The position numbers were made by a program, and so were the translations under genes. Below are positions 8,890 through 50,605 of a DNA stretch of 64,000 nt, one piece after another. The stretch is from NCBI RefSeq assembly GCF_037042905.1, contig NC_087245.1:17796001-17860000 (forward strand). The letters are read 5' to 3'. Below the pieces are notes generated by a model. It had not been told where the DNA came from. It did not search any database and saw only the letters and a program-made list of their open reading frames with translations. This DNA comes from Lytechinus pictus. Taxonomy: Eukaryota. Each line of letters opens with the position of its first letter. Within the stretch, counting starts at the first letter, position 1.

Positions 8890-9795
8890 CAGGGGGGCGG
8901 GGGCACATTGCCCCCCCCCCCCCCACTTTTCGAATTACTGAAAAAGTGTCCTTTTTACGCAAGAAAAATGCCCCCCTCACGAACGTGTACTGTGCCCCTT
9001 CTTTGGAAGAGGACCCATTTTAGGTGTTACCAAGTGCCCTTTCTCGTAAGTGCCATTTTTTCTCCAATAAATGCCTCCTCACGGACGTGTCCTGTGCCCT
9101 TTCATCTGAGAAGGACCCATTTTATGTGTCAGCAAGTGACATATCTCGTATCAGTGCCAAAGATTACCAAATAATTCCCCCTCACGAACGTGTTCTGTGC
9201 CCGTTTCACCTGAGAAAGATCCATTTTATGTTGGAGCAAGTGCTCCCTTGCCATCTTGTAAGTGCCCTTTCTCGAATCAGTGCCCCATTTTATTTTTTAC
9301 CCAAGAAAAGTGCCCCTTACGGACATGTCCTGAGCCACTTTCACCTGAGAAGGATTCGTTTTATGCCGTTAGCTAGTGCCCGTTTGCCATCTTATAGGTG
9401 CCCTTTCTCGTATCAGTGCCCCTTTTTACCTAAGAAAAGTGCCCCCCACGAACGTGTTCTGTGCCCCTTTCACCCAAGAATGACCTTTTTATGTGTTAAC
9501 GAGTGCCCTTTTGCCTTCTAATAGGTGTCTGTTCTTCATATCAGATAAGTTGCCCCCTCCCCCGAAATTTTGAAACTCACATTTTTTTTACTGCAGATTT
9601 TCACAAAATTCACCAAAAGTATACCAAAAATCCATCAATTTCACTTAACAACTAAATGCAAAAGCACATCGCTTTCGATTTTTTTCAAAAAGTTTACGCG
9701 TGCTGCCCCCTCCCCCTCCAACGAAAAATGTCTACATACGGCCATGTTTGAGATATTGCCCCCCCCCCCCTTTAAACTTTGCTCCGCCGCCCCTG
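8890..9795. mobile_element. hAT-like non-autonomous element with internal GTGCCC-rich tandem repeats
   Basis: CAGGGG...CCCCTG termini with a perfect 8-bp TSD GGCAGAAG (8882-8889, 9796-9803). Confidence 0.75.
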
Positions 9796-12658: not shown

Positions 12659-12677
12659 ATGTCGAAGTTTAAGTTCG
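12659..12677 (+). CDS. THR: THR putative first coding exon (MSKFKF-G, phase 1)
   Basis: ATG has A at -3 and an in-frame TGA upstream at 12608-12610. A perfect donor G|gtgagt follows at 12678. It sits at the end of a CpG-richer non-repetitive block, and its phase matches the downstream exons. No homology support. Confidence 0.6.
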
Positions 12678-30600: not shown

Positions 30601-33600
30601 TAAAAAATGTGCTGGTGAGAAGATGTTGGCCCTTTCTTGATGATTGAGAAAATAATGCCCTTTTTATTCCTCCACTCACTGTATGTGGTTGCCGGAAGTA
30701 TTATATTTTCAGGAATTGTACTTGCCATAACTAAAGAACTACCTGACAGATGAGATTCAAAGTTGGTCCAAGTATGCATACATGTATATGGGAAAGACAA
30801 TAAAATTTGGTAGTTTTGGCCTTTTGGGGTATCAAGGTCAATAGCCAAAGGTCAAAGGTCTTAGCATCCTTTTATACCCCTAAATATCTTGTTCTCATGA
30901 TAAGTATAGGAACTGCTCAAGGTTACAACTTTGAGAGAGACTTTAAAATGTCATTAACTTTCCCACCTTACATCCCATTTTGATAAAATCCCAAGTGCCG
31001 TGCTTGTTGGACCCCTCTCTCCCAAAAAAATGCACCCTAAATGGCGTAGTGACATTAAGTAAATTTGCAACCCTAAATGGCGTAACCCATGAGAAAAGCC
31101 ACCCTAAGTGGCATGAACAGGGAAATCCCCTAATTTGATACCCTAAGTGGCGTAAACATCGTAATCGATGTTATACCTGTGGGCATTTGGGTAACGCGTG
31201 CTGCCTAGTAAAGAACCCAGTGTAAGAGACTAATAGGACTGTACGGGGGTAAATCAAGTGCTGCACTGGGCGCGCCGGCGTGTGCGAGGATTATTTTGTA
31301 TCCCTTAAAATCGCCCTTCAGGTATGTTCATGGCTTAGGTCTGCTCCCGGGTCTCCTCAAATTTGCCCAAATTTGCACCCCTAAATGGCGTAATATTCAT
31401 AACCAAATTAGCAACCCTAAATGGCGTGAAGAGAGAAAGAAAAGGCTCCCCTTAAAGGTCCTATGAAATACAGCAAAGATGCTGATTTATTTGTTAGCTT
31501 ACATGTAGTGGTTACTAATTACGATTCCATCAAAATTTTACCCGAAAAACATCCCACATCAGGTTCAAAGGCAGTTTTATATTGAAAATTGAGCCAAATT
31601 CGCCACGCCCACAAAAAAAATCAGCCCGATTTGGTTTCGTATATCACGTGACAATTATGACGTCAGGGGAAGAATCTGCTGAGTGTTGCTGACGTTTGGA
31701 GCGTGAAGTGCCTATTGTGGTTGCACGTGTGGATTCAAAGTAAATAAATTGAATTGCTGGAATAATATTCAGAACCTGAATCTTCAAAGTCTGAAGAATC
31801 AGACGCAGCTGATGACGATGCTGCAGCCATGATCAAAACCTCATTAAAATCTTTAAAATCTGTTAAGGATGGGCTCGGTCAAAACAGCAACTACATGAGA
31901 AACATGTGCAATAACTAGGGGTCCGGCTGCACAGCTGAGAAAGCTTTCTTTCGATGACGTCACGATGATTGACAGGTCGATCGGCCGACTTTTTCGAAAA
32001 TTTTAGTGGGCATTCCCGTTGAAGTTCATTTCCATGGAATAACTCAACACCGGTTCATCGTACACAGAAACTGATGGCAAATTCATATTTTTCAAGTAAA
32101 ACTACTATACCCAAGAATAGATATATATCCAAAATAAGATGGTTTTTGTGTCATAGGACCTTTAAAGGCGATTTACCAGCGAATGGTGCTCAAATGCAAC
32201 CCTTTTTGCCAAAGACGTCGACACCACCCGAGTGCCTGAAATGGGACCCTTTTCACCGCTTTTTCTGGACGCGGGTGCGTAACAGGCCATGTGGAGAGTG
32301 ACCCCCCCCCCCCCCCGGGAAATATCTCGTTAGTTAGCTAGCTGTAACCATGGACCTACTACTCTGACTGAAGAGCTGTGTCAGGATCAGCTTCAAACTA
32401 GGTTTATGCATTATAAGTCCATGGTTTATGCATTGGCTGATGAGATTTTGGGGGTCACAAGGTCAAAGGTCGCAGACATGGGTAAAAAACGCAACAAAAA
32501 AAGAAAAGAGCCCCCCCCCAAATCACGTTTATGTAAAACGCGAAAAGGGTAGGCTCCAATGGAATTTGCACCAACTGCATGACCTATTCATTGTAACAGG
32601 GCCAATTACCTTAAAGAGAAATGCCAGTAGTTGCAGTAAACACCGATTTCATGAGAAAGTCTGTAAAACCAGGCTTAATTGTCAGTATATCATCGAGGAT
32701 CTAGATCTGGTGCAGTTACATAAACTGAACTTTGTGAAATCTTGAAATCTACGCTGAAAAATGTTCACACTGAGGATCACCAACACAGATAGGCACACGT
32801 GGGACAGTGTATTATTATTACTGGAATAAAGACCCGACGGAAGTGACCGAATCCACGCTTATTTTGCTTATTTCTCAGCAATTACACAATTTCTTCCAGA
32901 ATCCTTTGGCACATATTTTTTATTCATACAAACAGACACTTGGGTGGTCATTATATTAGATTCTGTAAAAAGTCATTTTGAGATCGTTACCAAAACTGGA
33001 ATTTATCTTTAAGCTTACAAAGAACAGAAATTGTACGCCACTTCGATAAAAAGCCCAATAAAAAAAATCACGTTTAGAAGTGGAATCCCTAACCCTGCAT
33101 CTCATACCCAACTCAAATGCCCAATACTATTTTATTTATTCACAGCACATCCATTCACAGGAACAACCTGGTCTAGGGTATGTAGGCCTACAAATAATTA
33201 ATGAAATCCCTGTTAAAGCTGTTCAAATATGGGACATCTGCTTAAAATTTGGGATGTCCTTACTAACAGCCTGCGCAGGAATCCTTGTTTAGGGTGCTTT
33301 TTTCAAGACGCTTCTCGTGGAGCGTTGTGGCCCAGTGGATTAGTCTCCGGACTTTGAAACAGAGGGTCGTGGGTTCAAATCCCAGCCATGGCGTAGTTTC
33401 CTTCAGCAAGAAATTTATCCACATTGTGCTGCACTCAAGCCAGGTGAGGTGATTGGGTACCTGGCAGGAATTTATTCCTTGAAATGCCACAGCGCTGTAA
33501 AAGGCTGCGGGGCTAAAGCCAGGGTAATAATATCCAAGTCCTTTGGAAGCGCATAGAGACCCGGGGGGGGGGGGGCACTTACGTTGACGAGTGGATACCA

Positions 33601-36600
33601 TGCGCGACCAAAAAAACACGTAAAAAGGATGTCTTTTTCAAGATAGGGCACGTTACGTATGTAACGTGATAAGGGTGTCTAAAACACAAAAATAATGAAA
33701 AAAGGGTATCTATTTCGCTAGGAAAGCTACGTGTTAAGGGTCAAATTTGCGGAGATGATAAAACAAAATTAAAATGTTTTAAAAAGGATGTCCTTTTTGC
33801 CCCAACACTACGTGTTTAGGGTTCGATTTGCGCGAGGTGTGGAAGGTGGGGCCGTACTCAACCAAATGGTGTGTAAAGGTAAAACCGACGACCGACGGAC
33901 CCGTGACATAACAATAAAAAATCGCTGTACTTGTTTAGGGGTTCATTTCAGGGAATATACTTGCTAAGAGTATCGTTTTGTTTCCAATACTTGTTAAGGG
34001 TAGGGTTTCAGACGCCAATACTTGTTAAGGGGTGCATTTTCAGAATATGGAAAATACGTGTTTAGGGTGCTTTTCGAGACCCCATGGTCGCGCATGGTAT
34101 CCACTCGTTAATGGAAGTGGCCCCCCCGGGATAGAGAAGTTATTTATAATGTGTACTGTTATGCGCTATACAAGAACTGACTATTATTATTATTATGGAT
34201 GCTGTCCACACTTCTCTGAAAATGCTATGAAAGTGCTTCAAGCTTATATACATGCATTAATTCCATCCTCCATCTTTTATTCTTGTCTTCCAAATATACG
34301 TATTTCATTGGTAAAATGGTACTGATATCTATAGGCTGGATACTAGTCAAACAAAAGGTCTGGAATTGGCCTGAACTGTGTTCTCATCATATCCTGATAG
34401 ATTCTTTCCTTTGATATGGAATTGGGTCAGTTGTTATGTAATTATTTTTTCATGATAGCCTGGTACTTGCAGTGAATATTGTTCCAGTTCTGGAATAAGA
34501 GAATGTTTTAATTTGAAATCAGAGGGCATAATGGTTCCTCCATGGATTGACACATGTTCAGTATCTGCCAACTTCCACCTTGAACTTCCTCATTCGTTTA
34601 AAGGGGAAGCATTTGATTCCAATTTAGTAATCCTGTGAAAGCAGGAAAAATCAGAAATACAATGGTTATTAAAGTTTACAAGAAATCATACAAGAATTTC
34701 TTTTTCACAGATTTGATTTAAACAAAAAGACCCCTGCTCGATGAGAAAAAATCCAAACACCCCTTGTCTAACATCATGCAATCAAGTTCTTCATAGGCAT
34801 ATATAATTTTTTTTTAGGATGTAGGTGCATAAGATTTGGTAACAAATTTTTTAAAACATATATTAAACTAATAAGAAAATAGTCCCTGAATCAAACTCTA
34901 ATCAAACCTTAGAAATGCTCCTTTTCAGAGAACAGTTTGGAATTCCTACGTACTTGGAATTTACAAAATTTACAAAATTTACAAAATGCATTCTGCTGCC
35001 GTGCTGCATGTAATTACCTGGTACCATCTTGGACCCTACTACAAATGGTATCATATCATTACCCCAGCTGGAGCTGAGCCACCATTATACTGTTGGAGCT
35101 AAATCCTAGCGGGTACTCATTCAACTCACCTGGGTCGAGTGCAGCCAGTTTGGATAAATTTCTTGCTGAAGGTGGTTTCAAGCACCTGAAGTAGGATTCA
35201 AACCCACAACCATCTGATCAACACACTATGACACTTCCACATCCCTAAACCCCAGATTTTGACTGTTGTTATTTTGAATAGGCAAACTAGTCAGTTTTGA
35301 CTATTGTTGCCTTGTTAATTTGCTTTCCTTTTTTTCCAAAAACATAATAATTTCTTTGTTGAATCTATATCAGTTAGAAAAGTAAAGGAAAGAGAGGAAA
35401 GAGAAGATCTTACGAAATCGTGCAAGACCACCACTCCTGCCCTGTTCTGCACGTTATCCTGACAAGCCCGCTCGAGGTGCATTTCGAGGGCGTCTGAAAT
35501 GCAACTTCATTTGTATTATATTGACTGGCCTTGAGGGGAACATCAAATATGTCACCCGCAACAGAATCATATTTGCCCGAATCTTTAGACGAGGGCAATA
35601 TGGTTCTTTTAAGGGCGACATATTTGATGTTTCCCGAAAGAAGAGCAATATTATTATTATTACCTACATGTAAGGCTGTACAATGTGTAATTCAAGCTAC
35701 TATTTGGAACAATTTATATGCCTGTATGCTTATCACTACTTCTGATTTCATGTTACTTACGACCTTAGCGAAGTAATCCTTAATAAGCAATTGTGCCGTA
35801 ATTGTTACCTTGCAGTCGCGCATCATGCATGACGCGCACATACACTCCATGCGTAGAAATCTTACGCTTGGTTACGTTTGTGTATGCACTGGCCGCGCCG
35901 CGCATGCGTTGGTTCATAAACTGGTTCCAGCCAGATTTCTGAAATGCTGAAATTAGCGATCGAAATCGGCTCCTACTGCACAAGTGCACTAGCAGAAATA
36001 TGGCCAATATTGCCCTCTATTTTGTACAGGATTTCTATGGGCTAAGCCCGGGGAGGGCAACATGGCAAATGTTTACCTCGTTGGTCTCGGATTTAAAGTA
36101 GCGAGCGAAATATGACTTATTTATCTTCTAAAATGCCTTGTATAGGTAATAATGATGAATATCCACACTCTATCCATGTATTTTTATTGAATAAAGTTAA
36201 TGAGTAGTTTTCCTGTTTTGTATTGTCTTTTATCATAGAGTCACCATACATACCAAGCTACATGGATCTTAGCAATGGCCCAGAGCCATGTGTCGTATGT
36301 GGAGATGCTGCTACAGGATATCATTACAGGTGTATGACCTGTGAAGGATGTAAGGTGGGTTCTTTATACAGCTAGTTCAATTCAATATACATTTATTACA
36401 TTCTTGGTTTTAATAGATATGGAAGATGAAACATACTAAGTTATCTACCAGTGTCACTCTGCAAAGGTAAAAATGAAATTGGGAACTGCATATAATAAGG
36501 CCCAGAGGGCATATAGTAGGGCAGATCCCACAACATTCATAGCATAAAAGATTACAAACAAACAAAACAACTTATTGTGACCCGGGGGGGGGGGGGGGGG

Positions 36601-39600
36601 CACTTACATTGACGAGTGGATACCATGTGCGACCAAAAAACACGTAAAAAGGATGTCTTTTTTCAAGATATGGCACGTTATATGTACATAACGTAATAAG
36701 GGTGTCAAAAACACTAAAATATTGAAAAAAGGGTATCTATTTCGCTAGAAAAGCTACGTGTTTAGGGTCAAATTTGCGAGGGTCTAAAAAATTAAGACTA
36801 AAATGTTTTATAAAGGATGTATATACTTTTTGCCCCAAGAGTCAACACTACGTGTTTAGAGTACGATTTGCGCGAGGTGTGGGAGGTGGGGTTGTATTTA
36901 ATCCAATGATGTAGGTAAAGGTAAAACCGACGACCAACGTCCGTGACAATAAAAATATCGCTTTACTTGTTTAGGGTTTTAATTCAGGGAGTACTTGCCA
37001 AGAGTATCGTTTTGTTTCCAATACTTGTTTAATAAGGGTAGGGTTTCACACGCCAATACTTGTTAAGGGGTGCATTTTCAGAATATGGAAAACATGTGTT
37101 TAGGGTGCTTTTCGAGACCCCATGGTCGCACATGGTATCCACTCGTCAATGGAAGTGGCCCCCCCCCTCCCCCTATTATTAAAGATGACTTTAATAATAG
37201 AGAAACTGCTCCAGCTTAATTTTTGTTTAAACAAAATTATCCGACTTGCTATCAGTTACATCTTTACAGCTAGATGAAATAAGAGTCTGAACTCTGTCAT
37301 ATCCCCTCAGACAACAAACACACAGACAAAAAATAGTACCATTAAATAGAAAGAAATAAGTGAAATGAGGTGAAATGAAGAAAAAGAAAGAAATTAAATT
37401 AAAATTCCACTAACTAGAGTGTCATTCCCAGGACCCTTTTTTCTTTAATTCAATGCATGAATTACTTTTATATGAATATATAACTTCAATTAAGTTTATA
37501 TTCATGTTAAAGAAGATAAAAACCTTCATATTATTATAATAACTATTAAAAGAGTTAAATAGGTCTTAATATTGTCTAGTTTATATTATAATTTCTTTAT
37601 CCAGAACAATTTTAGGGAAGAAATCACCTCTTTGTATTTTTACCTAGAGCTGCTACCATTACACAAAGTTGTTAGGTTATTATATCCAGTGTTGTGTTTT
37701 TGTGAAAATAGGGTATGTTATTGGAGACTACACATGAACAGCGAAGATCTAATGAAGATCTTGATGTATTAGGTCTTAACAGAATAATCATTTCTTTCTG
37801 AATGTTGTACTAGGTTTTTGGTTCTGATCTTTGTACTATATTGGCCTAGGTGTTGAGAATAATGGACCATTAAAATGAGATGAAAATTATCAATGTGTCT
37901 AATTATTAGAGTAGAAACTTAGATTCATATTTAAAAAGGGGACAAACAGGAACAGTTATGTGAACTTTCAACTCTCAGAATAAGCCACATACTAGTACAT
38001 GCAAGCTAAATTCCATGAACACGGATTAATTGAAATCTATCAATTACAAACATGTATTTGAACATATAGTTGTGTATAAATTCTTCATGAAGTGATTATT
38101 TTTGTTACAATAAAGATTGCAAAGGTAAAGACTTGAGTTTTTCTACTTGCATGGATGGTATGCATACAAGCATATTTCCTTATTTAATTAATTAGCATTT
38201 GACTTGCGAAGTGTTTCATTTTCTTACATTACTCATTTTCAATCAAGATGAAGAAAATTTTTCTTTTACCCCTTCTTGATGCAGGGATTCTTTCGAAGGA
38301 CGATTCAGAAGAAGTTGAGTTATTACTGTAAATGGAATGAAGAATGTATCATAGACAAAACAACAAGAAATCAATGTCAGCAATGTCGTTATAAGAAGTG
38401 TCTCACTGTTGGCATGGCACCAGATTGTAAGTTTTCATCACTTTATTTTTTTATTGATTTTTCAACACTTACATTGACGTGCTTTCTATTAATCTGCCAT
38501 TTTGGCGGGCTTCAGTTTAACCTTTGAGCTTTTCTGAAGTGCATGTTATCCTGCAATAATTAGTGACTTAGATTTTTTCTCTGTTCTGTCTCAACACAGT
38601 ACAGTGTATAAAATCAATGCATACCAACTCTCAAGGGCATTCCTTGCTTTGAGACAAGTCTGAGAGAATTCATACAAGGAGTGGATATATGAGGTCTGGA
38701 TAATATAACTGTGTTTTCATGTCTTAACGCTTTTACAAAATCAGTTTGTTTTCATCTGAAATTTTCCATAAGATACCGGTATCATATACCAATCCATGGC
38801 ATCTGAATATTTTGTGATCGTATCATTATACTGTACAGTTAATAATACGTTGTATGACATGTGCATCCAAAAGCAGGAAAAGATTTTACTCCTATAGAAT
38901 TTCATGGACCTCATGAGGTTGAAATGAATTAATTTGATAATTAAGGACATTGATGTGTAATCCCTCTTTTCAGTTCTCTTGGCCACAAGGTTTGAAAGGA
39001 ATTTTCTTGCGGAGTTTCTGCTTTTCATTCATTGAAAAAGTATGGAATATTTATTGCGCATGCTGGCTCAACACTGAGTCTTTGATATTTTACTTGCGTG
39101 TCTTGGTTAATAGAGGCTTCTGCTAATTTGAAGGTAAAATGTCTCATCCCCATGTTTATAAGAAATAAAATCAGAATTGTTTCCCTCTGTGATTTTATTT
39201 TAGTCTGTCCTGTTACCTTGTCATTCTCCCCACAATGTTTGATGCACCTATAATTCTGACCTTCAGGCCAGGCAAAGATCTTTTCTCTGGCTTCAGTGGT
39301 CAACATATCAGCCAAATTCATCCTTTTTTAAGGAAGTGTTTCTTTATCTGTCTGGGTGACATAAAGGTCTTTTATTTCTATTGAGACAATTATAGACCCT
39401 TAAGTGAGGTCAAGAAAACAGCAAATAGACTTGATTACAAAGGGAAGGGGCAAGGAGGGTCGTTGGGGATGTTTGGAAGTGTTTATGCTCATGTGTTGTG
39501 CAGAATTGCTTTCAATGATGGGATTATTAGACCATTCAAATATATTGATTCATGAGGTCACATTACTCAAAGCGCCTGGCATTAGCCTTTGTTGAATTTG

Positions 39601-42600
39601 TTCAAAGGATGGAAAGTCCTTTCTGTCAGAGGGGACCAGTCTCTTGACAGTTCTCATGTCATGGATCTACAATCGAACTAAAAAAAAAAAAAGTTTGGAC
39701 AATATCGAAAAAAAGTTTTGGTTCTGAGGACAAGATAGCGCGTGACCTCTCTTGGTAAGGTCATATGCTTCTGAAAAGGAATACACTTTCATACAATTAC
39801 AATAAGACTAAGAATTCTAGTCAGTGCATGCAATGCTGCATGTATTATTATGGTTTGGATTTTATGATGATATACAGGGGATAAGGAGGACAATGATACT
39901 TACTATTATAGCAATTGTGCAATCCATTGGTAATTTCCATGATAAATCATTCACAAACACCAATGGCATGAAGGAGTTGATGAAAGTTTGTAATAACTTA
40001 TATGCAGCCGTGCCCAAATGTATGGTTTTACATCAGGCTTATCTCCAATCATGTAGTAAAATAATTATTAAATTCAATTCTCCTTTTCAAAATTTTCTTG
40101 TTTATAATCGAAATAGACATGAAAAAGGGATTTATTATGCGAACATGGAGTAGTTAGTGTGACCTTAATTCGCGCATTACCTAATATATCTCTGCATCTA
40201 ATTTTTAATGTCTTGAAAAACTGATATCACCAACAGAAAAAGCGGCCCAAAACTCGAAGGTAAGGTCTCAATTTGTGAAAATATTGGCAGAACATCGGCA
40301 AATTTTGATACCTTTTGCGTCTGCTCTGAGAAAATCTGAACTTCTCAATGAGCATCAAGAAATTGCCAGTTTGCAAGCATAGGTCTCCAAAGTGGAACAT
40401 TGTAAGTAAAATATGTTACCAACCGAATTTATGGCATTTTAACCCCCATCTGATACCATTATCTTACCTTTATCTGCTTGATTTTGTTTCTAAAGCTTCG
40501 CTAAATGATCGTGCGCAAATTGAGGTCACACTTTTTTATGACACTTTTCAGCCGAGTGGGCACTAGTCGATCGCCATGGAATTTTGAAATCGCAATACCA
40601 GCGAAACCCTTGACCTAATTTAAAATACCGTCAAGCGAATATGACTTTGGGATCTTGCCTTCCGTCTGATATTTATGATTTTGATTAATTTTGTGTGAAC
40701 TGTGAGAAATTTTTGATTGCAAATCAACCTCATGGTAATTGTTAAAATGCGCGCAAATTATGGTCACCCCATCATATGTAAGGATGATCTTTTCTGAAAC
40801 CTGTAGTTGCATGTGATTACAGTAATGTAGTTCAGGGGGACTTTCGAATTTTGTACTTGTAGCGGTACATGTAGGCTCTATAATATGTAGTCCTCGTTTT
40901 TGTTACATTTAGGCTGGTTCAGGGGAAAATTCTCAAAGCGTTATGAAAAAAACCCTGAAAAGTTACAATATCAGTAGTTAATGTGAAAATGTTCATGAGA
41001 AGTATGCCCCTTTCAAATGGTAACTGTATTTTTATCTCCAATTATGCTAAAAACTAATGAAGTCATGCAATAGAACTAGAAGGGAAAGGGGTTACTTTTG
41101 TCCTGCTTATTTTTAGCAAATACCTGCTTATAACTTTATAAATACACTGTTAGCTCGGCCTATTTTGGAGTTGTTGTAATAATTTGTGTCATGTTTTGCA
41201 GCCTTGTTGAGGTAATAGATGTCTCATAGGACGAGATGCAGACTTTCCAATGTTGTGGAATAATTATGGTGATAAGCCAATACCATTGAGAGGCAAGCCG
41301 CATAAAATGTTTCTCTTCTTTGTTGATGGATTATGAATGCTTGGTTGAAGGTAGTACTACTTTTACTCTTCTTGTTTGTCAAATCAATGGATTAGTTGGT
41401 CATTTTTCCTGGATTTTGTATCTTTTCTTTTGAAAGAATGTCTCCAAAGTGGAACATTGTAAGTAAAATATGTTACCAACCGAATTTATGGCATTTTAAC
41501 CCCCATCTGATACCATTATCTTACCTTTATCTGCTTGATTTTGTTTCTAAAGCTTCGCTAAATGATCGTGCGCAAATTGAGGTCACACTTTTTTATGACA
41601 CTTTTCAGCCGAGTGGGCACTAGTCGATCGCCATGGAATTTTGAAATCGCAATACCAGCGAAACCCTTGACCTAATTTAAAATACCGTCAAGCGAATATG
41701 ACTTTGGGATCTTGCCTTCCGTCTGATATTTATGATTTTGATTAATTTTGTGTGAACTGTGAGAAATTTTTGATTGCAAATCAACCTCATGGTAATTGTT
41801 AAAATGCGCGCAAATTATGGTCACCCCATCATATGTAAGGATGATCTTTTCTGAAACCTGTAGTTGCATGTGATTACAGTAATGTAGTTCAGGGGGACTT
41901 TCGAATTTTGTACTTGTAGCGGTACATGTAGGCTCTATAATATGTAGTCCTCGTTTTTGTTACATTTAGGCTGGTTCAGGGGAAAATTCTCAAAGCGTTA
42001 TGAAAAAAACCCTGAAAAGTTACAATATCAGTAGTTAATGTGAAAATGTTCATGAGAAGTATGCCCCTTTCAAATGGTAACTGTATTTTTATCTCCAATT
42101 ATGCTAAAAACTAATGAAGTCATGCAATAGAACTAGAAGGGAAAGGGGTTACTTTTGTCCTGCTTATTTTTAGCAAATACCTGCTTATAACTTTATAAAT
42201 ACACTGTTAGCTCGGCCTATTTTGGAGTTGTTGTAATAATTTGTGTCATGTTTTGCAGCCTTGTTGAGGTAATAGATGTCTCATAGGACGAGATGCAGAC
42301 TTTCCAATGTTGTGGAATAATTATGGTGATAAGCCAATACCATTGAGAGGCAAGCCGCATAAAATGTTTCTCTTCTTTGTTGATGGATTATGAATGCTTG
42401 GTTGAAGGTAGTACTACTTTTACTCTGCTTGTTTGTCAAATCAATGGATTAGTTGGTCATTTTTCCTGGATTTTGTATCTTTTCTTTTGAAAGAATGTCC
42501 TTATTGCTGCCTTGCTTTGGATAGGTGACAATGATGAATGAATGTCTCAGGGTTTTTTATTTGCTTTATGTCCTGATACAAAAATAGGGTGGTTTAGAAC

Positions 42601-45600
42601 TATGAGTGGAAACTAGACCCTTGTACCAAGATTTTCCTTAAAGGGAAAGTTCATCCTGAAGAAATGTGTGTTGCAAAGATACTGGTCAAAAGAAATAATG
42701 AAAAATATTGGTGAAAGAATGAGGAAAATCCATCAAAGATTACAAAAGTTATTAGAATTTTGACATTTTGATTTGTGACCTCCAACAAGCAGCTACCTCA
42801 TATATATTTCTATTTTTCAATGGTTCATGATGACTTTTTTCTTTCAGGAGCAGGTTTGAGATTATTTGTCCATTGAAAAACTGAAGGTACAATAAAAACA
42901 GTTTTCAATTTTTTGACAAAAAATAGCATATTTTATATTTTTTATGGAAAACTGCTTGCCTATGACGTCTCAATGAAAAAAAATCTGATAACTTTAATCT
43001 TTGGATTTACCTCAAAGTAATATTATTCTATTATTTTTCTGCTGTTTTTACAATATACTTTTGTCAGGGTGAACTTCCCCTTTAACATTATAAAGTTTAG
43101 TGTCATCGGATTAGATTGTGGAAATTTTTTTTTAAAGAAACCTTCTCCAAGTGGTAGGGAAATGTTGCACATAAAGTAGGCCTAATGATATATACATTTT
43201 TATTTTTGTAATCACCAAAATTATATTTACTGCACACATAAGCATGACAAGGAAATGTAAAGAACGACAGTGTAGGCCTATTCTATTTCAACTGCTTTTA
43301 TTTTGTTTTTTGTCATATTTTGAATTGACAGCATCTAAGGAACAATCATTGGCTTTAGGCCATGTTATGTGAAATCTTGAGCACAATATTTTTTCGAAAT
43401 AATTTTTAAAAATGATGAAATCGCAATTTTTCTTATCGCTCGTTCCACTACATGACTTTCGCGTAAGGATGATTATATATTTGTCACTTATTGTTGCTAC
43501 AAAAATTATTTGACTTGTTGATGATTGAGAGTTGTTCATTTGTGAGGTCTTTAAGTTTTTAATACACAACAATGGGTAACCTTTATCTTAAGAACCTCCC
43601 TGCCTAGCAATCCTTGGGAACATAGCAACGCCAAGACAGCCATCAGAAACATTACAAGGGAAATATATAAACATGAAGAAATTGTCACGTCTTGAGCCCT
43701 TGCATGTGCAGAGCGCATGTGCAAAGTAACCTCATCCCATCTTTCCTGCTGTGTGCATTGAGCTTAAGAAACGATGTGAATGTTATTTTCTAATCAATAA
43801 TTTTGAAAGGATGTTTGAGGTGATGTGAGGTTACGTGATCTATTTGTCATCGGTATTCCTTTTGAAGATCCCAGAGCAAGGTGTCTTCTTGGGTCTCTTT
43901 TGTGTGAATCGAGGTCATGAAGTGTCCTAAAGAAGGCCACATAAGGACAAGAGCTTTAGATTAAAAGGAAAGAGAAGGAATAAATGGACAAACAGAAAGT
44001 TAAAAGGACAAAAAAAGATGAGGGACAGCTTGTTTTGCAATTTCTAAAGATGAGAATACATCCCTTCAATTTCAATGACATTTCCTTCCAACTGTTAAAT
44101 GCCTGGTGACAATTATTATGTAAGTTCTACTTTCCTCTTATAATGACCATCTATCTCTATCAGGGGTATATTGATCAGAAAGAGAACTAGAGGAAGAAGA
44201 AGTAGAAAAAGAAGGAGGAGGAGGGAGAAGGAGAAGAAAAAGAAAAAGGAAGAGTAGGGGAAGAGAATAAGAAGAAGAGGAAGAAGAAGAAAAAAAAGAT
44301 GAGGTGGAGGAGAAAGAAGAAGGATAAGAAGATTGTCATTGTTTTCTAGAATATGACATTTCATTGATTTATAAACAATATTTGGGGAAGCTGCGCTGCT
44401 CACATATGAAGTCACAAATCAGACAAATACAATTCTAATAATTTTTTATCTTTGATGTTTTTTTTTCCTCAAATTTTCACCAATATTTTGTATTTTTTTA
44501 ATCCTTTAAAAATCAGTGAGTGCCTAGTGCCTACTTGTATTGCCAAATCCATTTTCTTCCTGTATTTTCATTTTTTCTTCAACTTTATTCTACCAGCTCC
44601 TATCCACCATCTTTGAATGATCTAGAACTTTGCCACAACTTTTCCATCTTTTCTTCTCTTAGTTTTATATTCATTTTCATATAATCTTTCATTGTATAAT
44701 TTCTTTCTAATTCGTTCTCTTCTTACTCTTACTCCTCTTCCAAATCATCCCCTCTTGCTTTCTTCTTTCTTGTCATCTTCATTCATGTTTAACATTTAAT
44801 CCATAAACTGAAAACAGTCAATGAGATGTCCTTAAAGGAGAATGAAACTCTTGGAGCAAGTTAGCTTTTGTGAAAGCAGAAAAATCAAAGAATAAGATCA
44901 ACAAAAGTTTAAGTAAAATAGGACTAGCAATAGAAGAGTTATGAGCATTTGAATGTCGAGATCACTAATGCTATGGAGATCTTCCCATTGGCAATGCGAC
45001 CTAGATCTTTGATGTCACAGATGAACAACTCTCCCCTTTTGGACACTGAAGATATACCCCAAAACATCTCTTTTTGCTCATTCTAATCATATGACAAACA
45101 ATTTATCAATGATATAATGTTGTGAAACCTCTGTACTTGTCCTCTCATAAAGAGAACACCTCACCTTGTGATAGACTCTATAAAAGTGGGAATATAAGTG
45201 AAATAAGTACTAAAGTAATGAGGGAGTTGTACATGTGTGACATCACAGATCTTGGTCGCATTGCCAATGGGAAGGATCTACATGGCATTAGTGATCTCGA
45301 CATTAAAATGATCATAACTTTCTTATTATTCATTCAATCTTCCTCAAACTTTCAACAATATGTTTCTTTGATTTTTCTCTTTGATATGGATTCAGCTGGT
45401 TTCAAGGGTTTCATTCTCCTTTAAGGGATTAGACATAAGGTCAACTAGCAGATTATTTACCAAACCTTTTATGAAGGATAAATATCGTCCAGCCCCCTTC
45501 CAATTTCTTTAATATATTCTCTCCATATTTATTTCAATGTGTTGGGAAGTTTTATTGCTCCAGTTATTTCTATCCAGGTTATCATCTTATTATTATATTC

Positions 45601-48600
45601 GTCATTGTTGTTAATGTTGTTATTGTCACTATCACAATAGTATGGCACTAGAGCAAGGATTCACTGTAATATGTATTCATTCAAACTATGATATTTGGCC
45701 TGTGCTAGTGAATGTGGTGATTATTTGATAAAGATTTTTAAGACTTTGTCAGAACATATCTCGGTACTTTTGCTCCAATAATGGTCTGGCTTAGTGCTAA
45801 ATAAGGGCATATTAAATGGGTTCTAGAGATTGAGTATACAAATTTGACATGTGTAAGAATACAAGAAGATATTCATATTTGACAAATTGACATTGACAAA
45901 TAAAGAAGAAATATATTTCACTAATGTTTTTAAACACCTGCGGCAGTAGATACGATTTAAGTGTAACCCTTTTCTGGTCTTAATCTTGGTCTTTTTAGTG
46001 GTACTGAACGAGAGTCAGCGTAAGGCAAAGAGGGCGCTGATACAGGAGAATCGTGAGAAGCGTAGCAGAGAAGAGATGCTGAGACAGACCGGTCTAATCT
46101 CTACTAACCAGCTGACAAATCATGAAGAGTCGTTGATTAGAGCTATTCTGGTAGCTCATAAACAAACCAGTCATATGTACAGGAGGGAATCAAGTTCCGG
46201 GGATGAGGTTTGTATTAATACATCCATTACTTTACAAAGTTCATAGAGGAGATATAAACCCTCTCATGGTTTAGACTCCCCTCTGGCTTTTTCAAGTACG
46301 CACACATAATGAATCTGATTTAATCCTCTTTTCTTTAATTGTTTACCTTGGTAATTTGTGCTTTCAATGTTACACTTTTTCAAGATTTTTTAAAAGGATG
46401 GGGAGGGGGTTTAAACCTCAAATATAAAGTATCAATTGTATAAACTTTTCCTTGTAAATCCAGCCTTCATATTGTTAGGCACCTTATCAAAAGTCAGAGC
46501 CTTGTCGAAAAATTCTTTCATACAGGAATCCAGCAAGCATCTTTTCATCTATAATTCTCATATTCATTGAGACATAACAGTAATGGATGTGAAAAATCGG
46601 CTGTGAACTATGCACATACTACATAGTGTCTTTGACTCAACAAAATATGTTTGCATTATTTCCTGCATAAGGGTTGAAACTTCTCTTATCAACCTTTTTA
46701 TTTGGATTTTGAACAACATCTTACAGTGAACTCTACAGTAGCATACACAGGATTTTTAAAGGGGGGGGGGTTTCAAGCTGAATGAAATGTTGAAAACCCT
46801 CTCCCCCCCCCCAAAAAAAAAAAAAAAAAAAAAAAAAATCACCACAAACTTTACGTTGTTTCGTACCTCAAGAAAAATCGACAAGCAAAAAAAAAAGGTC
46901 TTTGAAAAAATTTTAGGGGGGGGGGGTTTGTTATAAACAAAAATTTAAGGGGGGTTTGAACCCCTGTAACCACCCCCTGCGTACACTACTGGTACTCCAA
47001 AATTATTCTTTCCCATAGGCCCAGATTAGAGATGGAAATTAAGTTTCTACCAGTTGTCTTGCATAATTTCCATGTCAAAATATTCCTTGTTTTAAGTAGA
47101 TTTTCACATAATCTTTTGTCACCATGAATCATAGAATATGTTTTAATTTCTATATTTGTCAGCATATCAGACCCATTTTCATACATTTCAGCAAGTGCAT
47201 TTTTTAATGAATTATATACTGTGAGACAGAGAGAAAAGGGGTGATTTTCCTTCTAATGTTCATTAAAAATATGTTTTAATGGACCTAAATGCAATTTACA
47301 TGCATTTTGGTTATATTTGACACTTAATGGATAAAAAAAAATCCTGAACATCCTAAATGCTATCATACAGTATATCAGGAGAACTTAAATTATGTTGATT
47401 ACAATATTCTTCCTTTTCAATTCAAATCTATCAATCTTCCCCTGCAATCCCACAGCTGTTGCCATGGTAAATGAGTGTTTTCATCAGTTCACAGAATAAC
47501 ATTACCCTAAAGACTGATTGTAGTGGTATACTTGTCATCTTGGGCCACATTTTAGTTCATAAGTGACCCAAGAGACTGTCTGTATTGTCAGTTCAGGCCA
47601 AGGTTAAACCACACATGCTCATTTGATGTTGAGAATATTTATGTCATCTTAAAGCATGCTATTTAAACATTGTATTTAGCTATGTGGGGGTTATGCAGTA
47701 AAGCGACCTGACCATGGCATTTCAAAGGTACTGCAAGTGTAACAGTTGAATTTATTTTGTTGACGTCCCACCCCACGTTGAAATTAACTTTCTTGAAAGT
47801 TTAAGGTATTTAGTGACCTCTCCTGAATATTTGTCAAAATCAGCATTTGCTATACACCCACAGAGTTGTGGGAAACTATTCACTTTTCAGGAGTGGGGTA
47901 AAGATAAGAAATAAACGTCTTTCACATAAATTAACAATAAATGATGAAAAAACCTTGAAGTATATCTAAAAATAATTTCAGAAAAGCTCAATCCTGGAAA
48001 AGAGAATTTTTGAGTTTTTGTAACTTATTTTTATCCTATTTTTGAAATATGCTTTTTTCAAAAGTTTTCATTTGACATAGATGGATTTCCACTGCACTCA
48101 GCTTTTCTGGACATACCTGGGGCCCTGTTCATAAAGAGTTCGAACTATGTGGAATACTTTTGTAATCATAATAAATGTTTCAATGGTAGTTACAATATAT
48201 TTTAATATGGCAAAGGTACCATAGTTGTAAGACTTATTTTGTCATCATTAATATCTATTGTATTTTTAGAGTGAACCTGATAGCAAGAAACTGAAGATGG
48301 AGGATGAAAAACCCTTAGCTGAGATCATGACGCCTTCTATAGTCAAAGTAGTGGAATTTGCCAAGAGAATACCAGGATTTACAAATGTGAGTAGCCTCTA
48401 CATGATGAAAAATGGTACATTGTTGTTAACCCCTGGTTTACTTGGAATGAGAAGATAAGTATTCAATAATTAAGACATAAATTATTGTCTCAAGCCATGA
48501 ATTACATGTTTTGGGAAGTGATTATCCTTTCAACATTTTATGTGACTATTATTTTAGTGTAAAAATAGCTATTTGAAAAATATCAACCATGAATGGCATT

Positions 48601-50605
48601 TTGTATTTTAGTTTTCAGTAGATCACCTTTATTCAAAGTACATGTATGATGTTGTTATTTAGACAGCAAAACTTCTTTTGAAAAAATCTATTGAGAAAAT
48701 GTGTTTTAAAGACTATTATATGATCTGATAGCTATGCTCTCGATTTTACAGGAAAGTGTTAACACAATTGGCTACACATTGGCTACACATTGCTTCATGT
48801 AAAATAGAGATTTCAGTTACAGCCTACTTTAATACTAAAGTCATCAAAATAAAACAAAAGGGGAAATTCGGCTTACATAATGCGTATTCTTGAATTATGA
48901 TTTTTTTTAACAGTCACTATTATTTGTTTTAAATTCATCTTTCGTAGCTTCATCATGATGATCAAATTTTACTTCTGAAGACCTGCTGCATGGAGATCAT
49001 GTGCTTGAGAATAGCTCAGAAGTTTGACCCGGACAGTCAGAAGTTGGTCCTCTCCAACGGTCTTCGGGTCGGCAAATCCGACATGGATCACGGTGTCCTC
49101 AGTGAGCTAATTGAACCCATCTTTGACTTTGCTGTCAGTATGTCCAGATTACAACTCACAGAAACAGAGAATGCTCTCTTAGCTGCAGTGTTGCTGATAG
49201 CAGGAGGTGAGTTATCTCAGTCTTCATTTCGATCCCACCGCTGCCACCATATCTCAGCTATGCATGGTTGCTATCTGGAGTGATAGAGTGCAGAATAATA
49301 ACACATCAACAATGATTTCAAGTACTAAACTTTCTCAGGGTGTTCGGTTTATTTAGCCATATTGGAAGGGTAGTAAGAGAACCCTCTTGGACTATAAAGG
49401 CCCTTGATCATCAGGAAGGAAAGTTGATGGACTAAAATTAGACATAATTGTCATTTTGCCCTTGTTTCATTTTACCATATTCACAATTTTTCAATCGAAT
49501 GCATCCATTTTATTGCATAAATTAATTGCACATAAAAAATGTATGCACCTTCATTAATTATTTGGAAGACAACATTGTGTATAACAAGAACTTGTGTCAT
49601 ACATTCATGTTAGCCATGGTCATATTCTAAGGATGTATTTTTTTTTCTTTTCAGTTGAAATTTATGAATAAGGTTTATTCTTGTGAATTTTTGATCTTGA
49701 TTTCTTTTTACAGACCGACCAGGTTTGAAGGAGGCTAAGCTTGTTGAGACGTTACAAGACAGTCTGTTAACAGCCTTCCAGCATTTTATCAATGAATCCA
49801 GGCCAAAGACCCCTGTGCACTGGGCCAAGATACTCATGAAGGTAATTTTAGAAGTATATTTTAAATTTCTGTATGCTGGACAAAATAATTTAAAGATATA
49901 GCATTGTTTTTGTCTTGCCTGTACGAAGTTGGCAGAGACCTCGTGATCACTTTCCCTGTTAATAGTCTGTTACAAAAATGTTTAAAGTTTTTGTTCAATT
50001 TGCTCTTTATTTCTTTATTTCTGCATCAATTAAATGGATCCAGGCTTGGGTAATACCACATGTGTGTTCATGAGGATGATGGGGTCAAAGGTCATCTAGG
50101 GGTTGATATGAGGTCATGTCCATCCTGTTTTGGAGTTTTTGTTCAACTTGCTGTCATTTCTTTATTTCAAGTTGTTTGCTTTTGGTACAAATCATTATAT
50201 AATAGTACACTTGGGTTCATGAGGATCATTAGGTCAAAGGTCATGTAGGGGTCCAAAGATCATTTACATATTTTATTGATTGCAAAATCAGGCAAGACTC
50301 GTGTTTAATGAACCACCTTGTTATGGCTATTCTTGGAAGTTTCAACTCCTGTTAGGATGTTCTTTTATTATCTTTTTCAGACTAGAAGATACTAGTATTC
50401 GCTTTTACAAATTATTTGATGGTTGTTGAAAGAAAGTTATACGTGATATGAATTAAAAGATAAAAACTGTTTCATGTTTCAGATCACCGACTTGAGGACC
50501 ATCAGTGCCAGGCATGCTGAACGCATCATGTGCATCAAGTTGGACCGACCTAATGAAATACCTCAGATATTCTTGGAGATGTTTGATGATAACGGTCTGG
50601 TCTGA
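12659..50605 (+). CDS. THR: Thyroid hormone receptor (NR1A), spliced CDS join(12659-12677,25207-25266,36239-36354,38285-38426,45999-46207,48270-48386,48948-49206,49714-49841,50483-50605), 390 aa
   Basis: Manual translation gives [39 protein letters not shown] (TR-type DBD, P-box EGCKG), hinge [22 protein letters not shown], and LBD motifs [46 protein letters not shown] and FLEMFDD. All align with vertebrate TR sequences as I recall them. All introns are GT-AG, phases are compatible, and exon lengths sum to 1173 nt. Confidence 0.93.
13714..14536. mobile_element. MITE (TIR TGCTTTTCACACTGCA) with GGGGTTA/GGGCTA repeats and a duplicated 3' half
   Basis: TIR at 13714 and 14213; about 13902-14213 is repeated at about 14216-14536. 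Confidence 0.8.
17246..17765. mobile_element. Related MITE (TIR TACCCTTTTTACACA) with two right ends
   Basis: The inverse TIR ends at both 17582 and 17765; it has the same GGGGTTA repeats as 13714-14536. Confidence 0.75.
18066..18466. mobile_element. Kolobok/T2-like MITE; inverted copy at 32615-33008
   Basis: TTAA on both flanks, AG...CT termini, reverse-complement match to 32615-33008. Confidence 0.75.
18860..19985. repeat. Unclassified interspersed repeat (inverted copy at about 35530-36130) with a Kolobok-like MITE at 19316-19898
   Basis: Shared segments gaggtaaacatttgccatgttgccctc and atatgattctgttgc...tttgatgttcccctcaag occur in opposite orientation. Confidence 0.65.
21456..23016. mobile_element. 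Fold-back element with about 650-bp inverted arms
   Basis: TAGGAGTGGGCTATA...TATAGCCCACTCCTA termini. Arms are about 21456-22110 and 22350-23016. GTGATAA is duplicated on both flanks. Confidence 0.85.
23417..23794. mobile_element. Kolobok/T2-like MITE
   Basis: TTAA-AG...CT-TTAA ends with imperfect TIRs. Confidence 0.55.
23922..24503. mobile_element. Kolobok/T2-like MITE (AGGACAAGTCCACCCC family; partial copy at 20266-20700, degenerate copy at about 54362-54883)
   Basis: TTAA flanks, imperfect TIRs, shared internal sequence. Confidence 0.7.
25207..25266 (+). CDS. THR: THR putative exon 2 (60 nt, [19 protein letters not shown], phase 1-1)
   Basis: Polypyrimidine tract plus cccag acceptor, gtaagt donor at 25267, and an open purine-rich frame that joins 12677 to 36239 in frame. 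Confidence 0.6.
26323..26599. mobile_element. Palindromic GGGCCC-ended MITE (possibly PIF/Harbinger-like); relatives at about 56350-56587 and 58957-59423
   Basis: Inverted ends aaagagttacgattgatc / gatcaatcgtaactcttt, with CTG on both flanks. Confidence 0.7.
27928..29537. mobile_element. Helentron/HINE-like element with AGGTCA-rich internal tandem repeats, interrupted by a TIR element
   Basis: Subterminal inverted repeat GTCTCGCCTGCA (27934) / TGCAGGCGAGAC (29504), T-rich ends, and three roughly 170-bp internal units. The class assignment is an inference. Confidence 0.55.
28449..29486. mobile_element. TA-flanked TIR element (AGTCAGACxGCAGGTCCC) nested in the HINE-like element
   Basis: About 19-bp TIRs with TA flanks. 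Confidence 0.7.
29677..30197. mobile_element. PIF/Harbinger (Tourist)-like MITE
   Basis: TIR GGCTGCGTTTATCCG / CGGATAAACGCACCC, TTA/TAA flanks, internal AATCATGATT repeats. Confidence 0.75.
30990..32319. mobile_element. CCCGGG-ended repeat with ACCCTAAATGGCG units, interrupted by a Kolobok-like MITE at 31456-32161
   Basis: Repeated accctaaatggcgt units. The inner element has TIR AGGTCCTATGA and TTAA on both flanks. The left end of the host is approximate. Confidence 0.6.
33318..34195 (+). mobile_element. tRNA-derived SINE split by a DNA-transposon insertion; degenerate inverted copy at about 35105-35235
   Basis: Pol III A box TGGCCCAGTGG, B box GGTTCAAATCC, central ccttcagcaagaaatttatccaca...gggtacc segment, and a (TAT)n tail after the insertion. 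Confidence 0.8.
33560..34130. mobile_element. CCCGGG-ended TIR element; second copy at 36581-37172
   Basis: About 45-bp TIRs (gacgagtggataccatgcgcgacc); ATAGAGA duplicated at 33553-33559 and 34131-34137. Confidence 0.8.
36239..36354 (+). CDS. THR: THR exon 3: first zinc finger ([38 protein letters not shown])
   Basis: tcatag acceptor and AAG|gtgggt donor; TR-diagnostic YIPSY and GYHYRC motifs. Confidence 0.96.
38285..38426 (+). CDS. THR: THR exon 4: second zinc finger ([47 protein letters not shown])
   Basis: gcag acceptor, gtaagt donor, C4 nuclear receptor finger. Confidence 0.97.
40383..42496. repeat. Near-perfect tandem duplication, 1057-bp period
   Basis: 40383-41439 recurs at 41440-42496. 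I saw one difference (T41370/G42427). GTC microhomology at the junction. Confidence 0.95.
42642..43081. mobile_element. Kolobok/T2-like MITE
   Basis: TIR AGGGAAAGTTCATCCTGA / TCAGGGTGAACTTCCCCT, TTAA flanks. Confidence 0.75.
43808..43949 (+). promoter_or_regulatory. Candidate thyroid hormone response element (DR4) cluster
   Basis: AGGATG-tttg-AGGTGA-tgtg-AGGTTA (43808-43833), AGGTCA (43912-43917), AGGCCA-cata-AGGACA (43934-43949). Confidence 0.45.
44836..45420. mobile_element. Kolobok/T2-like palindromic MITE
   Basis: TIR AGGAGAATGAAAC / GTTTCATTCTCCT, TTAA flanks, internal inverted arms. Confidence 0.8.
45999..46207 (+). CDS. THR: THR exon 5: T/A-box hinge and LBD helix 1
   Basis: ttttag acceptor and GAG|gtttgt donor; [26 protein letters not shown] matches the TR hinge. 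Confidence 0.93.
46736..46991. mobile_element. Short hAT-like element
   Basis: CAGTAG...CTACTG ends; flanks gaactcta / gtactcca are a degenerate 8-bp TSD. Confidence 0.5.
48270..48386 (+). CDS. THR: THR exon 6: LBD helix 3 ([39 protein letters not shown])
   Basis: ttttag acceptor, gtgagt donor, 117 nt phase 0-0; start of the LBD signature (FAKRIPGF). Confidence 0.93.
48948..49206 (+). CDS. THR: THR exon 7: LBD helices 4-8
   Basis: cgtag acceptor and G|gtgagt donor; [21 protein letters not shown]...[13 protein letters not shown]. Confidence 0.96.
49714..49841 (+). CDS. THR: THR exon 8: LBD helices 9-10
   Basis: tacag acceptor and AAG|gtaatt donor; [43 protein letters not shown]. Confidence 0.96.
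49906..50322. mobile_element. Second HINE-like element with GGTCAAAGGTCA units
   Basis: GTCTTGCCTG (49912) / CAGGCAAGAC (50289) inverted repeat; same architecture as 27928-29537. Confidence 0.5.
50483..50605 (+). CDS. THR: THR last coding exon: helices 11-12/AF-2 ([40 protein letters not shown])
   Basis: ttcag acceptor, AF-2 core FLEMF, TGA at 50603-50605. Confidence 0.96.
   Translation: MTDLRTISARHAERIMCIKLDRPNEIPQIFLEMFDDNGLV

What the first reader, a model, noticed from the sequence alone, without database searches (positions are those of the whole stretch)
43808..43949. Cluster of DR4 thyroid-response-like elements inside the thyroid receptor's own intron 4: candidate autoregulatory enhancer
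Seen: within 142 bp of unique sequence there are three half-sites chained at 4-bp spacing (AGGATG-tttg-AGGTGA-tgtg-AGGTTA), a perfect AGGTCA facing TGTCCT, and a second DR4 (AGGCCA-cata-AGGACA). Known: DR4 is the canonical RXR/TR element; AGGTGA, AGGTTA and AGGACA are usual natural TRE half-sites; TR-beta autoinduction through DR4s drives amphibian metamorphosis; thyroid hormones accelerate echinoid metamorphosis. Inference: TR autoregulation may exist in this invertebrate. The half-sites are degenerate, so chance cannot be excluded by eye.
Basis: partly seen in the sequence, partly recalled or inferred. Interest (0 to 1): 0.72.

Follow-up and report, generated by a model that had tools for sequence, protein, structure and literature searches.

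The report
Candidate self-binding sites in thyroid-receptor gene
An intron of a sea urchin's thyroid hormone receptor gene holds a short single-copy stretch with more receptor-type binding sites than chance controls give, so the receptor may help control its own gene, but binding has not been shown.

Summary
The motifs are all there, in single-copy DNA of intron 4 of an intact sea-urchin thyroid hormone receptor (TR) gene. Scored with a DR4 matrix built from vertebrate TR ChIP data, 43808-43949 is the best DR4 cluster in the 64 kb. It is reached by 1 of 200 4-mer shuffles and 1 of 297 permuted motifs on the real DNA, and is DR4-specific among 13 spacings. Two sites carry it (43818, 43934); both score like functional Xenopus TREs. 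The surrounding ~440 bp is about half as diverged as its flanks in one related-species run (3.5% vs 7.0%, p=0.014), but base-level conservation of the motifs was not seen. Best reading: a TR/RXR-type response element in the receptor's own gene. Published T4 induction of S. purpuratus thrb fits this. Reviews say the urchin receptor does not bind T4, T3 or TRIAC, so hormone-free repression is likelier than frog-style autoinduction. Self-regulating TREs are known in frog and oyster; I found none described for echinoderms. Binding is untested.

The parts
43808..43949 (+). DR4 cluster (candidate TR/RXR response region)
43934..43949 (+). Best DR4: AGGCCA-cata-AGGACA, 16.2 bits, rank 3 in the window; TR-side octamer TAAGGACA
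43818..43833 (+). Second DR4: AGGTGA-tgtg-AGGTTA, 13.9 bits, rank 5
43808..43823 (+). Weak first link of the chain: AGGATG-tttg-AGGTGA, 5.4 bits, rank 251 (background level)
43902..43917 (+). Perfect half-site AGGTCA (43912-43917) with a poor upstream partner (10.8 bits as DR4); top-scoring TR-side octamer CGAGGTCA
43912..43939 (.). AGGTCA / TGTCCT / AGGCCA: overlapping IR5 and ER5 arrangements that link the perfect half-site to the best DR4
43726..43746 (-). Imperfect inverted copy of the chain, with a second TGAGGTTA octamer on the minus strand (6.2 bits as DR4)
43730..44170 (.). Single-copy block with lower divergence than its flanks (contig ends, not functional ends, set these limits)
38427..45998 (+). 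Intron 4 of the TR gene, between the second zinc-finger exon and the hinge exon
12659..50605 (+). TR (NR1A) coding region, nine exons: 12659-12677, 25207-25266, 36239-36354, 38285-38426, 45999-46207, 48270-48386, 48948-49206, 49714-49841, 50483-50605
   Evidence: 390 aa, 383/390 identical to the L. variegatus TR record P0001, 364/390 to S. purpuratus P0002

Best explanation
The stretch is an intronic nuclear-receptor response element built for RXR-TR heterodimers, inside the TR gene itself. [quoted passage not shown] The perfect AGGTCA, the inverted AGGACA and the minus-strand TGAGGTTA would give extra docking for TR monomers or homodimers. Bound TR would feed back on its own promoter, at least 31 kb upstream, by looping. 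Most likely this is a corepressor-holding brake that works without classical hormone and is released or switched when T4 signalling arrives indirectly (integrin-MAPK route, RXR ligand or an unidentified metabolite). That would give the late-larval rise in TR mRNA. Shown here: the motifs, their excess over chance, DR4 specificity, single copy, a conserved DNA-binding domain. Inferred: binding, target promoter, sign of regulation, link to T4.
For: Cluster statistics. Non-overlapping DR4 score 40.9 is reached by 0 of 200 dinucleotide and 1 of 200 4-mer shuffles of the whole window, and by 0 of 297 (repeats masked) or 1 of 297 (unmasked) permuted motifs on the real DNA. It is the best window in 11 of 12 settings. 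Spacing: of DR0-DR12 only DR4 scores at this place (0 of 100 shuffles with spacer bases, 2 of 100 without; DR5 14 or 99 of 100; the other 11 spacings 98-100 of 100). The two main sites (13.9, 16.2 bits) fall in the range of five Xenopus TREs tested in oocytes and a reporter DR4 (12.1-21.3 bits; motifs from PMC5527017 and PMC12775020). All three named DR4s have T at spacer position 3 and a purine at position 4, as enriched in TR-occupied sites (PMC9249314 Table 2). DNA-binding domain and C-terminal extension match TR best (2NLL/3M9E, E about 1e-46, next family 3e-29). Constraint: run X4 shows 14 substitutions in 402 bases over 43730-44170 against 61 in 876 in three flanking pieces (Fisher p=0.014). 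Run X10 shows 1 in 518 against 18 in 1205 (p=0.020). In X3 the 39 gap letters are fully explained by three deletions outside the motifs. S. purpuratus thrb rises with T4 in 27-day larvae (log fold change 1.28, p=2.9e-7; PMC10250714 supplement). Thr and Rxr are co-expressed in coelomic pouch cells (PMC9856734).
Against: No binding, accessibility or reporter data. None of the three DR4s fits the strict vertebrate pattern NGGTCA-n4-RGGNNA. No single site is significant. Half-site density alone is not unusual. The background is only this 64 kb, since no genome was held. Real urchin DNA is rich in AGGTCA-bearing repeats: the top single DR4 at 28000 lies in one, and a DR5 window at 16732-16761 scores as high for its own spacing (41.3 vs 42.4 and 62.1 vs 59.1). 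With overlapping sites summed and no masking, 8 of 297 permuted motifs reach the score. Constraint is modest: p=0.079 against the two upstream pieces alone; not significant for the longer X2 and X3 contigs (p=0.57, 0.27). X10 depth is only 2.4. The per-base list was cut at 43553, so motif bases were not seen. Oyster TR alone preferred DR3 and DR2 over DR4 (PMC4692385), so vertebrate preferences may not carry over. Vertebrate genomes hold over 50,000 DR4 matches, of which a few per cent are occupied (PMC9249314).
Confidence: 0.5

Rival explanations
1. A real response element, but read mainly by another RXR partner or AGGTCA-binding receptor (NR7, LXR, RAR, COUP-TF, NR5A), so it is cross-regulation of the TR gene rather than self-regulation.
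For: Amphioxus NR7, a family also present in sea urchins, binds DR4 with RXR and activates a DR4 reporter (PMC9535869). LXR's main motif is DR4 (PMC3295715). T4 also raises RAR and an LRH-1 orthologue in late larvae (PMC10250714). COUP-TF promiscuity on direct repeats is recalled, not tested.
Against: The three named spacers (tttg, tgtg, cata) have T at position 3 and a purine at 4, the TR-side preference; 0 of 3 start with the LXR-type CT. DR1, DR2, DR3 and DR5 do not score here once spacer bases are counted.
Confidence: 0.15
2. Chance arrangement in neutral intron DNA: a G-rich patch with a short 10-base tandem (which automatically makes a DR4 chain) plus one lucky site.
For: The stretch is G-richer than its flanks (G 0.28 vs 0.16-0.19). 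The chain reads as three degenerate 10-mers. One site of 16.2 bits is expected in about every second 64 kb. One of 12 other spacings gives an equally strong window elsewhere. Conservation is not significant in the X2 and X3 comparisons.
Against: 0-5 of 100 shuffles and 0-4 of 149 permuted motifs reach the score in 12 settings; two separate sites of 13.8 bits or more within 150 bp occur in 1 of 200 shuffles. The spacing that scores is the one expected in advance for the host gene's own protein. Lower divergence in X4 and X10.
Confidence: 0.25
3. A constrained enhancer or other functional block whose real drivers are other factors, the DR4 look being incidental; or a decayed mobile-element or RNA hairpin remnant.
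For: The low-divergence block extends beyond the motifs on both sides. An imperfect inverted repeat joins 43726-43746 to 43805-43834.
Against: RNA fold is not better than shuffles (z=-1.23, 18 of 200). No Rfam match near threshold (one hit, 22.8 bits vs 74, outside the cluster). Single-copy depth argues against a mobile element.
Confidence: 0.1

Closest known systems
Xenopus TR-beta autoinduction through a TRE in its own gene (Machuca et al. 1995; seen only as cited in PMC4692385, PMC10250714 and PMC5527017)
   Same: DR4-type element in the TR gene itself; TR mRNA rises with hormone near metamorphosis.
   Different: The frog element is described as in the promoter and works through T3-bound TR. 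This one is at least 31 kb downstream of the ATG exon in intron 4, is a cluster of degenerate sites, and the urchin receptor is reported not to bind T3 or T4.
Pacific oyster CgTR promoter element CgDR5 (PMC4692385, passages read)
   Same: Invertebrate TR gene with a response element for its own product. T4 induces the mRNA in vivo although the receptor is not activated by T4, T3 or TRIAC; unliganded TR represses the promoter.
   Different: A single atypical DR5 about 1 kb upstream, shown by gel shift. Here two DR4s plus extra half-sites in an intron, with no binding shown, in a deuterostome.
Vertebrate RXR/TR DR4 elements (PMC9249314, methods and results sections read; PMC12775020, passages)
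   Same: 4-base spacing, RGGNNA on the TR side, T then purine at the end of the spacer; scores within the range of functional TREs.
   Different: The RXR-side half-sites each carry one mismatch (AGGTGA, AGGCCA), so neither fits the strict screen pattern.
Genome-wide TRE motif counts in S. purpuratus (PMC10250714, passages and one supplement row)
   Same: The 43934 site fits that paper's DR4 pattern exactly; the paper infers THR autoinduction from RNA-seq.
   Different: It counted motifs within 500 bp upstream of starts only; the word 'intron' does not occur in its main text, and no element in the THR gene is named in the passages seen.

Membership tests
Host gene: thyroid hormone receptor (NR1A) | C4 zinc-finger DNA-binding domain and ligand-binding domain closest to TRs | tested here: met
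   Pfam zf-C4 and Hormone_recep; the 30 best PDB hits of exon 7 are TRs; DNA-binding domain of P0001 best matches TR-beta; 98.2% identical to the L. variegatus TR record
Host gene: thyroid hormone receptor (NR1A) | Binds and is activated by T3, T4 or TRIAC | not testable with these tools
   Reviews say it does not (PMC7827873; PMC10083991); docking found little support (PMC12408288). The pocket differs from human TR-beta at several positions (residue numbering recalled).
DR4 thyroid hormone response element | Two RGGTCA-like half-sites in direct repeat with 4-base spacing | tested here: met
   43934 and 43818; 43934 fits RGGNCA-n4-RGGNCA exactly; DR4 is the only spacing that scores
DR4 thyroid hormone response element | Strict vertebrate screen pattern NGGTCA-n4-RGGNNA | tested here: not met
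   0 of 3 named DR4s match; the only match in the window is at 28000, in a repeat. Two of the five functional Xenopus TREs used as controls match it either, on inspection of PMC5527017 Table 1 (MBD3 does; PPM1B, PGPEP1, JUNB, BEND7 do not), so the pattern is not a hard requirement.
DR4 thyroid hormone response element | TR-side spacer preference (T or C at position 9, purine at 10) | tested here: met
   3 of 3 named spacers (tttg, tgtg, cata) against PMC9249314 Tables 1-2
DR4 thyroid hormone response element | Score within the range of functional TREs | tested here: met
   13.9 and 16.2 bits vs 12.1-21.3 for six published elements; 43808 (5.4) fails
DR4 thyroid hormone response element | Conserved across species at the motif bases | tested here: inconclusive
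   Block-level divergence lower in X4 and X10, not significant in X2 and X3; per-base rows for the motifs not shown; no distant orthologue found
DR4 thyroid hormone response element | Bound by RXR/TR in vitro and in chromatin | not testable with these tools
   Needs gel shift and CUT&RUN or ChIP
Autoregulatory enhancer | Confers TR- or hormone-dependent change on its own gene's transcription | not testable with these tools
   Only indirect: thrb up with T4 in 27-day S. purpuratus larvae, not with T3, not at gastrula or 23 days
LXR response element (DR4) | CT at the first two spacer positions | tested here: not met
   0 of 3 named spacers; feature from PMC3295715, where it is a tendency, not a rule

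The most novel reading that the evidence does not exclude
This intronic DR4 cluster is the element through which sea-urchin TR directly drives its own T4-induced rise before metamorphosis. A frog-like positive feedback loop would then run in an echinoderm whose receptor is thought not to bind classical thyroid hormones, by way of an unknown T4 metabolite or a ligand on the RXR partner. Together with a perfect DR5 in intron 1 (16747-16763), the TR gene would join thyroid and retinoic-acid inputs into metamorphic timing.
Probability: 0.2. Interest if true: 0.75.

Novelty: new member of a known kind. Interest (0 to 1): 0.48.

Why it matters
Whether thyroid hormones act on echinoderm larvae through the nuclear receptor is open. 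T4 speeds metamorphosis and raises TR mRNA in late larvae, yet the receptor is reported not to bind T4, T3 or TRIAC. A defined 142-bp native element in the TR gene gives a direct reagent for gel shifts, reporters and deletion in an animal that can be injected. It could separate liganded activation, hormone-free repression and indirect signalling, and show whether TR self-regulation is shared across deuterostomes. If it fails, it is one more unbound DR4 look-alike.

Tried and rejected
Whole-genome background: no genome is held for this window, so all backgrounds are this 64 kb, its shuffles and permuted motifs.

Locus-wide DR4 excess (4 strict RGGNCA DR4s vs 0.25-0.45 expected) was rejected as evidence: DR1 (4), DR3 (3) and DR11 (3) are similarly high, 6 of 300 spacings reach 4 or more, and the perfect site at 28000 lies in an AGGTCA-rich repeat. 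Half-site density alone was not significant in 5 of 6 settings.

Search for distant orthologues: the motif pattern gave 0 matches in metagenome contigs; the hinge exon gave 1 weak locus (L001, 39% over 39 residues, not examined further). RNA structure and Rfam gave nothing. Earlier findings of the scan: none for relatives, the protein or the words; the 8 shown of 323 genome notes are unrelated.

The 0.13 word share of organism A runs cannot tell a conserved core from evenly spread changes. The uncovered or thin stretch 43120-43380 in organism A is not used as evidence, and contig depth says nothing about open chromatin.

Rows left out of the divergence counts: repeat-derived pieces at 41500-41830 (all runs) and X10 piece 42734-42942 (16 substitutions, 9 gaps, inside a repeat). 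PMC11618098 (passages) and bioRxiv 10.1101/2023.01.06.522990 (passages) held no TR-gene element. One search had two exon ends off by one base; corrected. No structure or complex prediction was run; it would not bear on DNA binding.

Full report
Host gene. The window holds a complete nuclear receptor gene on the plus strand. Nine exons from 12659 to 50605, with 8 of 8 GT-AG introns, give an open frame of 390 residues, 383/390 identical to the Lytechinus variegatus TR record P0001 and 364/390 to S. purpuratus P0002. The animal is therefore a Lytechinus-like sea urchin (inference). The DNA-binding domain and its C-terminal extension match vertebrate TR-beta best (E about 1e-46; next family 3e-29, run on P0001). 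The finding lies in intron 4 (38427-45998), 5.4 kb after the second zinc-finger exon, 2.05 kb before the hinge exon and 31 kb from the ATG exon.

Observation. All seven hexamers are at the stated positions. The stretch has no copy elsewhere in the window and shows single-copy depth in 3 of 3 organism-A runs laid, while repeats at 41500-41860 and 42580-43120 show depths in the thousands.

Is it more than chance? I built a DR4 matrix from the TR-alpha ChIP enrichment tables of PMC9249314 (neuron and cardiomyocyte sets; probabilities at the fixed positions are my assumption, varied 0.70-0.95). Six published elements (five Xenopus TREs tested in oocytes, PMC5527017; one reporter DR4, PMC12775020) score 12.1-21.3. 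With overlapping sites summed, the cluster was the top window in 8 of 12 settings and second in 4, and 0-1 of 100 whole-window shuffles reached it. With non-overlapping sites only, 0 of 200 dinucleotide and 1 of 200 4-mer shuffles, and 0 of 297 (masked) or 1 of 297 (unmasked) permuted motifs on the real DNA reached it; the overlapping score unmasked was reached by 8 of 297. Over 12 further settings the counts were 0-5 of 100 and 0-4 of 149, and the cluster was best in 11 of 12. Of 13 spacings only DR4 scores at this place. Against: no single site is significant (0.49 expected per 64 kb); half-site density alone is not unusual; none of the three DR4s fits the strict pattern NGGTCA-n4-RGGNNA; a DR5 window at 16732-16761 scores as high for its own spacing; and urchin repeats are rich in AGGTCA, as the perfect DR4 at 28000 shows. 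No genome-wide background could be run. I put the chance of such a cluster in a TR locus at about 1-3%, with the caveat that the background is small.

Conservation. One run search found nine runs of organism A with small word shares and one of organism B with 0.59. I laid 4 of the 10 on 41500-44170. Organism A has a single-copy orthologue across 43382-44170. In X4, 43730-44170 has 14 substitutions in 402 aligned bases (3.5%) against 61 in 876 (7.0%) for three flanking pieces, Fisher p=0.014; against the two upstream pieces alone p=0.079. The longer X2 and X3 contigs, which include the more diverged 43382-43637, do not differ from upstream (p=0.57, 0.27). X10, nearly identical to the window, has 1 change in 518 bases against 18 in 1205 elsewhere (p=0.020), at depth 2.4. 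In X3 all 39 gap letters are three deletions (43882, 44086, 44154), none in a motif; one shortens the gap between the two DR4 groups by 7 bases. The per-base table was cut at 43553 (171 rows not shown), so I did not see whether motif bases differ. The signal is modest and at block level.

Mechanism. [quoted passage not shown] All three named spacers have T then a purine there, which favours TR over LXR, whose spacer tends to start with CT (PMC3295715). NR7, present in sea urchins, also binds DR4 with RXR (PMC9535869) and is a fair rival. In S. purpuratus, thrb rises with T4 only in 27-day larvae (log fold change 1.28, p=2.9e-7; T3 0.06), which the authors call autoinduction (PMC10250714). Two reviews state that the urchin receptor does not bind or respond to T4, T3 or TRIAC (PMC7827873, PMC10083991; primary papers not seen), and docking gave little support (PMC12408288). 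The alignments show pocket changes against human TR-beta; by recalled numbering these include A317 to I, G345 to V, R282 and R320 to K and N331 to S, with H435 kept. The oyster gives the model: T4 induces TR mRNA, the receptor is not activated by hormone, and unliganded TR binds and represses its own promoter (PMC4692385). I therefore favour a TR-bound feedback element (0.5), more likely a hormone-free brake released indirectly than a liganded activator. The rivals are another receptor (0.15), chance (0.25) and an unrelated constrained block (0.1).

What is known. Self-regulating elements in TR genes are described for Xenopus and oyster, and TR induction by hormone for amphioxus (as stated in PMC4692385). 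Eight literature searches showed no described element in an echinoderm TR gene; the library lacks most subscription papers, so this is weak. Papers seen: PMC9249314, parts 1-2 of 3; PMC10250714, passages plus one supplement row; PMC12775020, PMC4692385, PMC9856734, PMC7827873, PMC10083991, PMC12408288, PMC5527017, PMC9535869, PMC3295715, PMC11618098 and bioRxiv 10.1101/2023.01.06.522990, passages only. Machuca et al. 1995 and Paris et al. 2008 were seen only as citations.

Verdict. It works like a DR4 TRE cluster on sequence grounds; membership awaits binding. New member of a known kind; interest 0.48, mainly because it makes the open question of nuclear thyroid signalling in echinoderms testable with a native element.

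Noticed in passing
window 16747-16763, minus strand (intron 1 of the TR gene): Perfect DR5, AGGTCA-cgttc-AGGTCA, outside the self-repeat mask, with more half-sites nearby; 0.015 expected per 64 kb in 4-mer shuffles. It looks like a retinoic acid response element and hints at RAR/RXR input to the TR gene. Copy number and conservation not checked.
   Followed up: partly
window 27960-28370: Dispersed repeat with three AGGTCA-rich units, giving a perfect DR1, DR4 and DR8 at 27979-28015; similar units near 30835, 32452, 50082 and 50231. Such repeats inflate genome-wide TRE counts in sea urchins and could also seed real sites.
   Followed up: partly
window 15430-15445 and 26296-26311, plus strand: Two isolated strict DR4s (16.7 and 12.7 bits) in introns 1 and 2.
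   Followed up: no
window 40370-41442 and 41429-42499: Tandem duplicate of about 1.07 kb at 99.5% identity inside intron 4; a recent duplication or an assembly artefact.
   Followed up: no
window 9789-10088 and 10540-10839: Another near-exact tandem duplicate, spacing 751.
   Followed up: no
window 43700-43725: Short near-palindrome with two GCATGTGCA copies just upstream of the cluster, inside or beside the low-divergence block; possible site for another factor.
   Followed up: no
protein P0003: One S. purpuratus TR model repeats the hinge exon, probably a haplotype assembly artefact.
   Followed up: no
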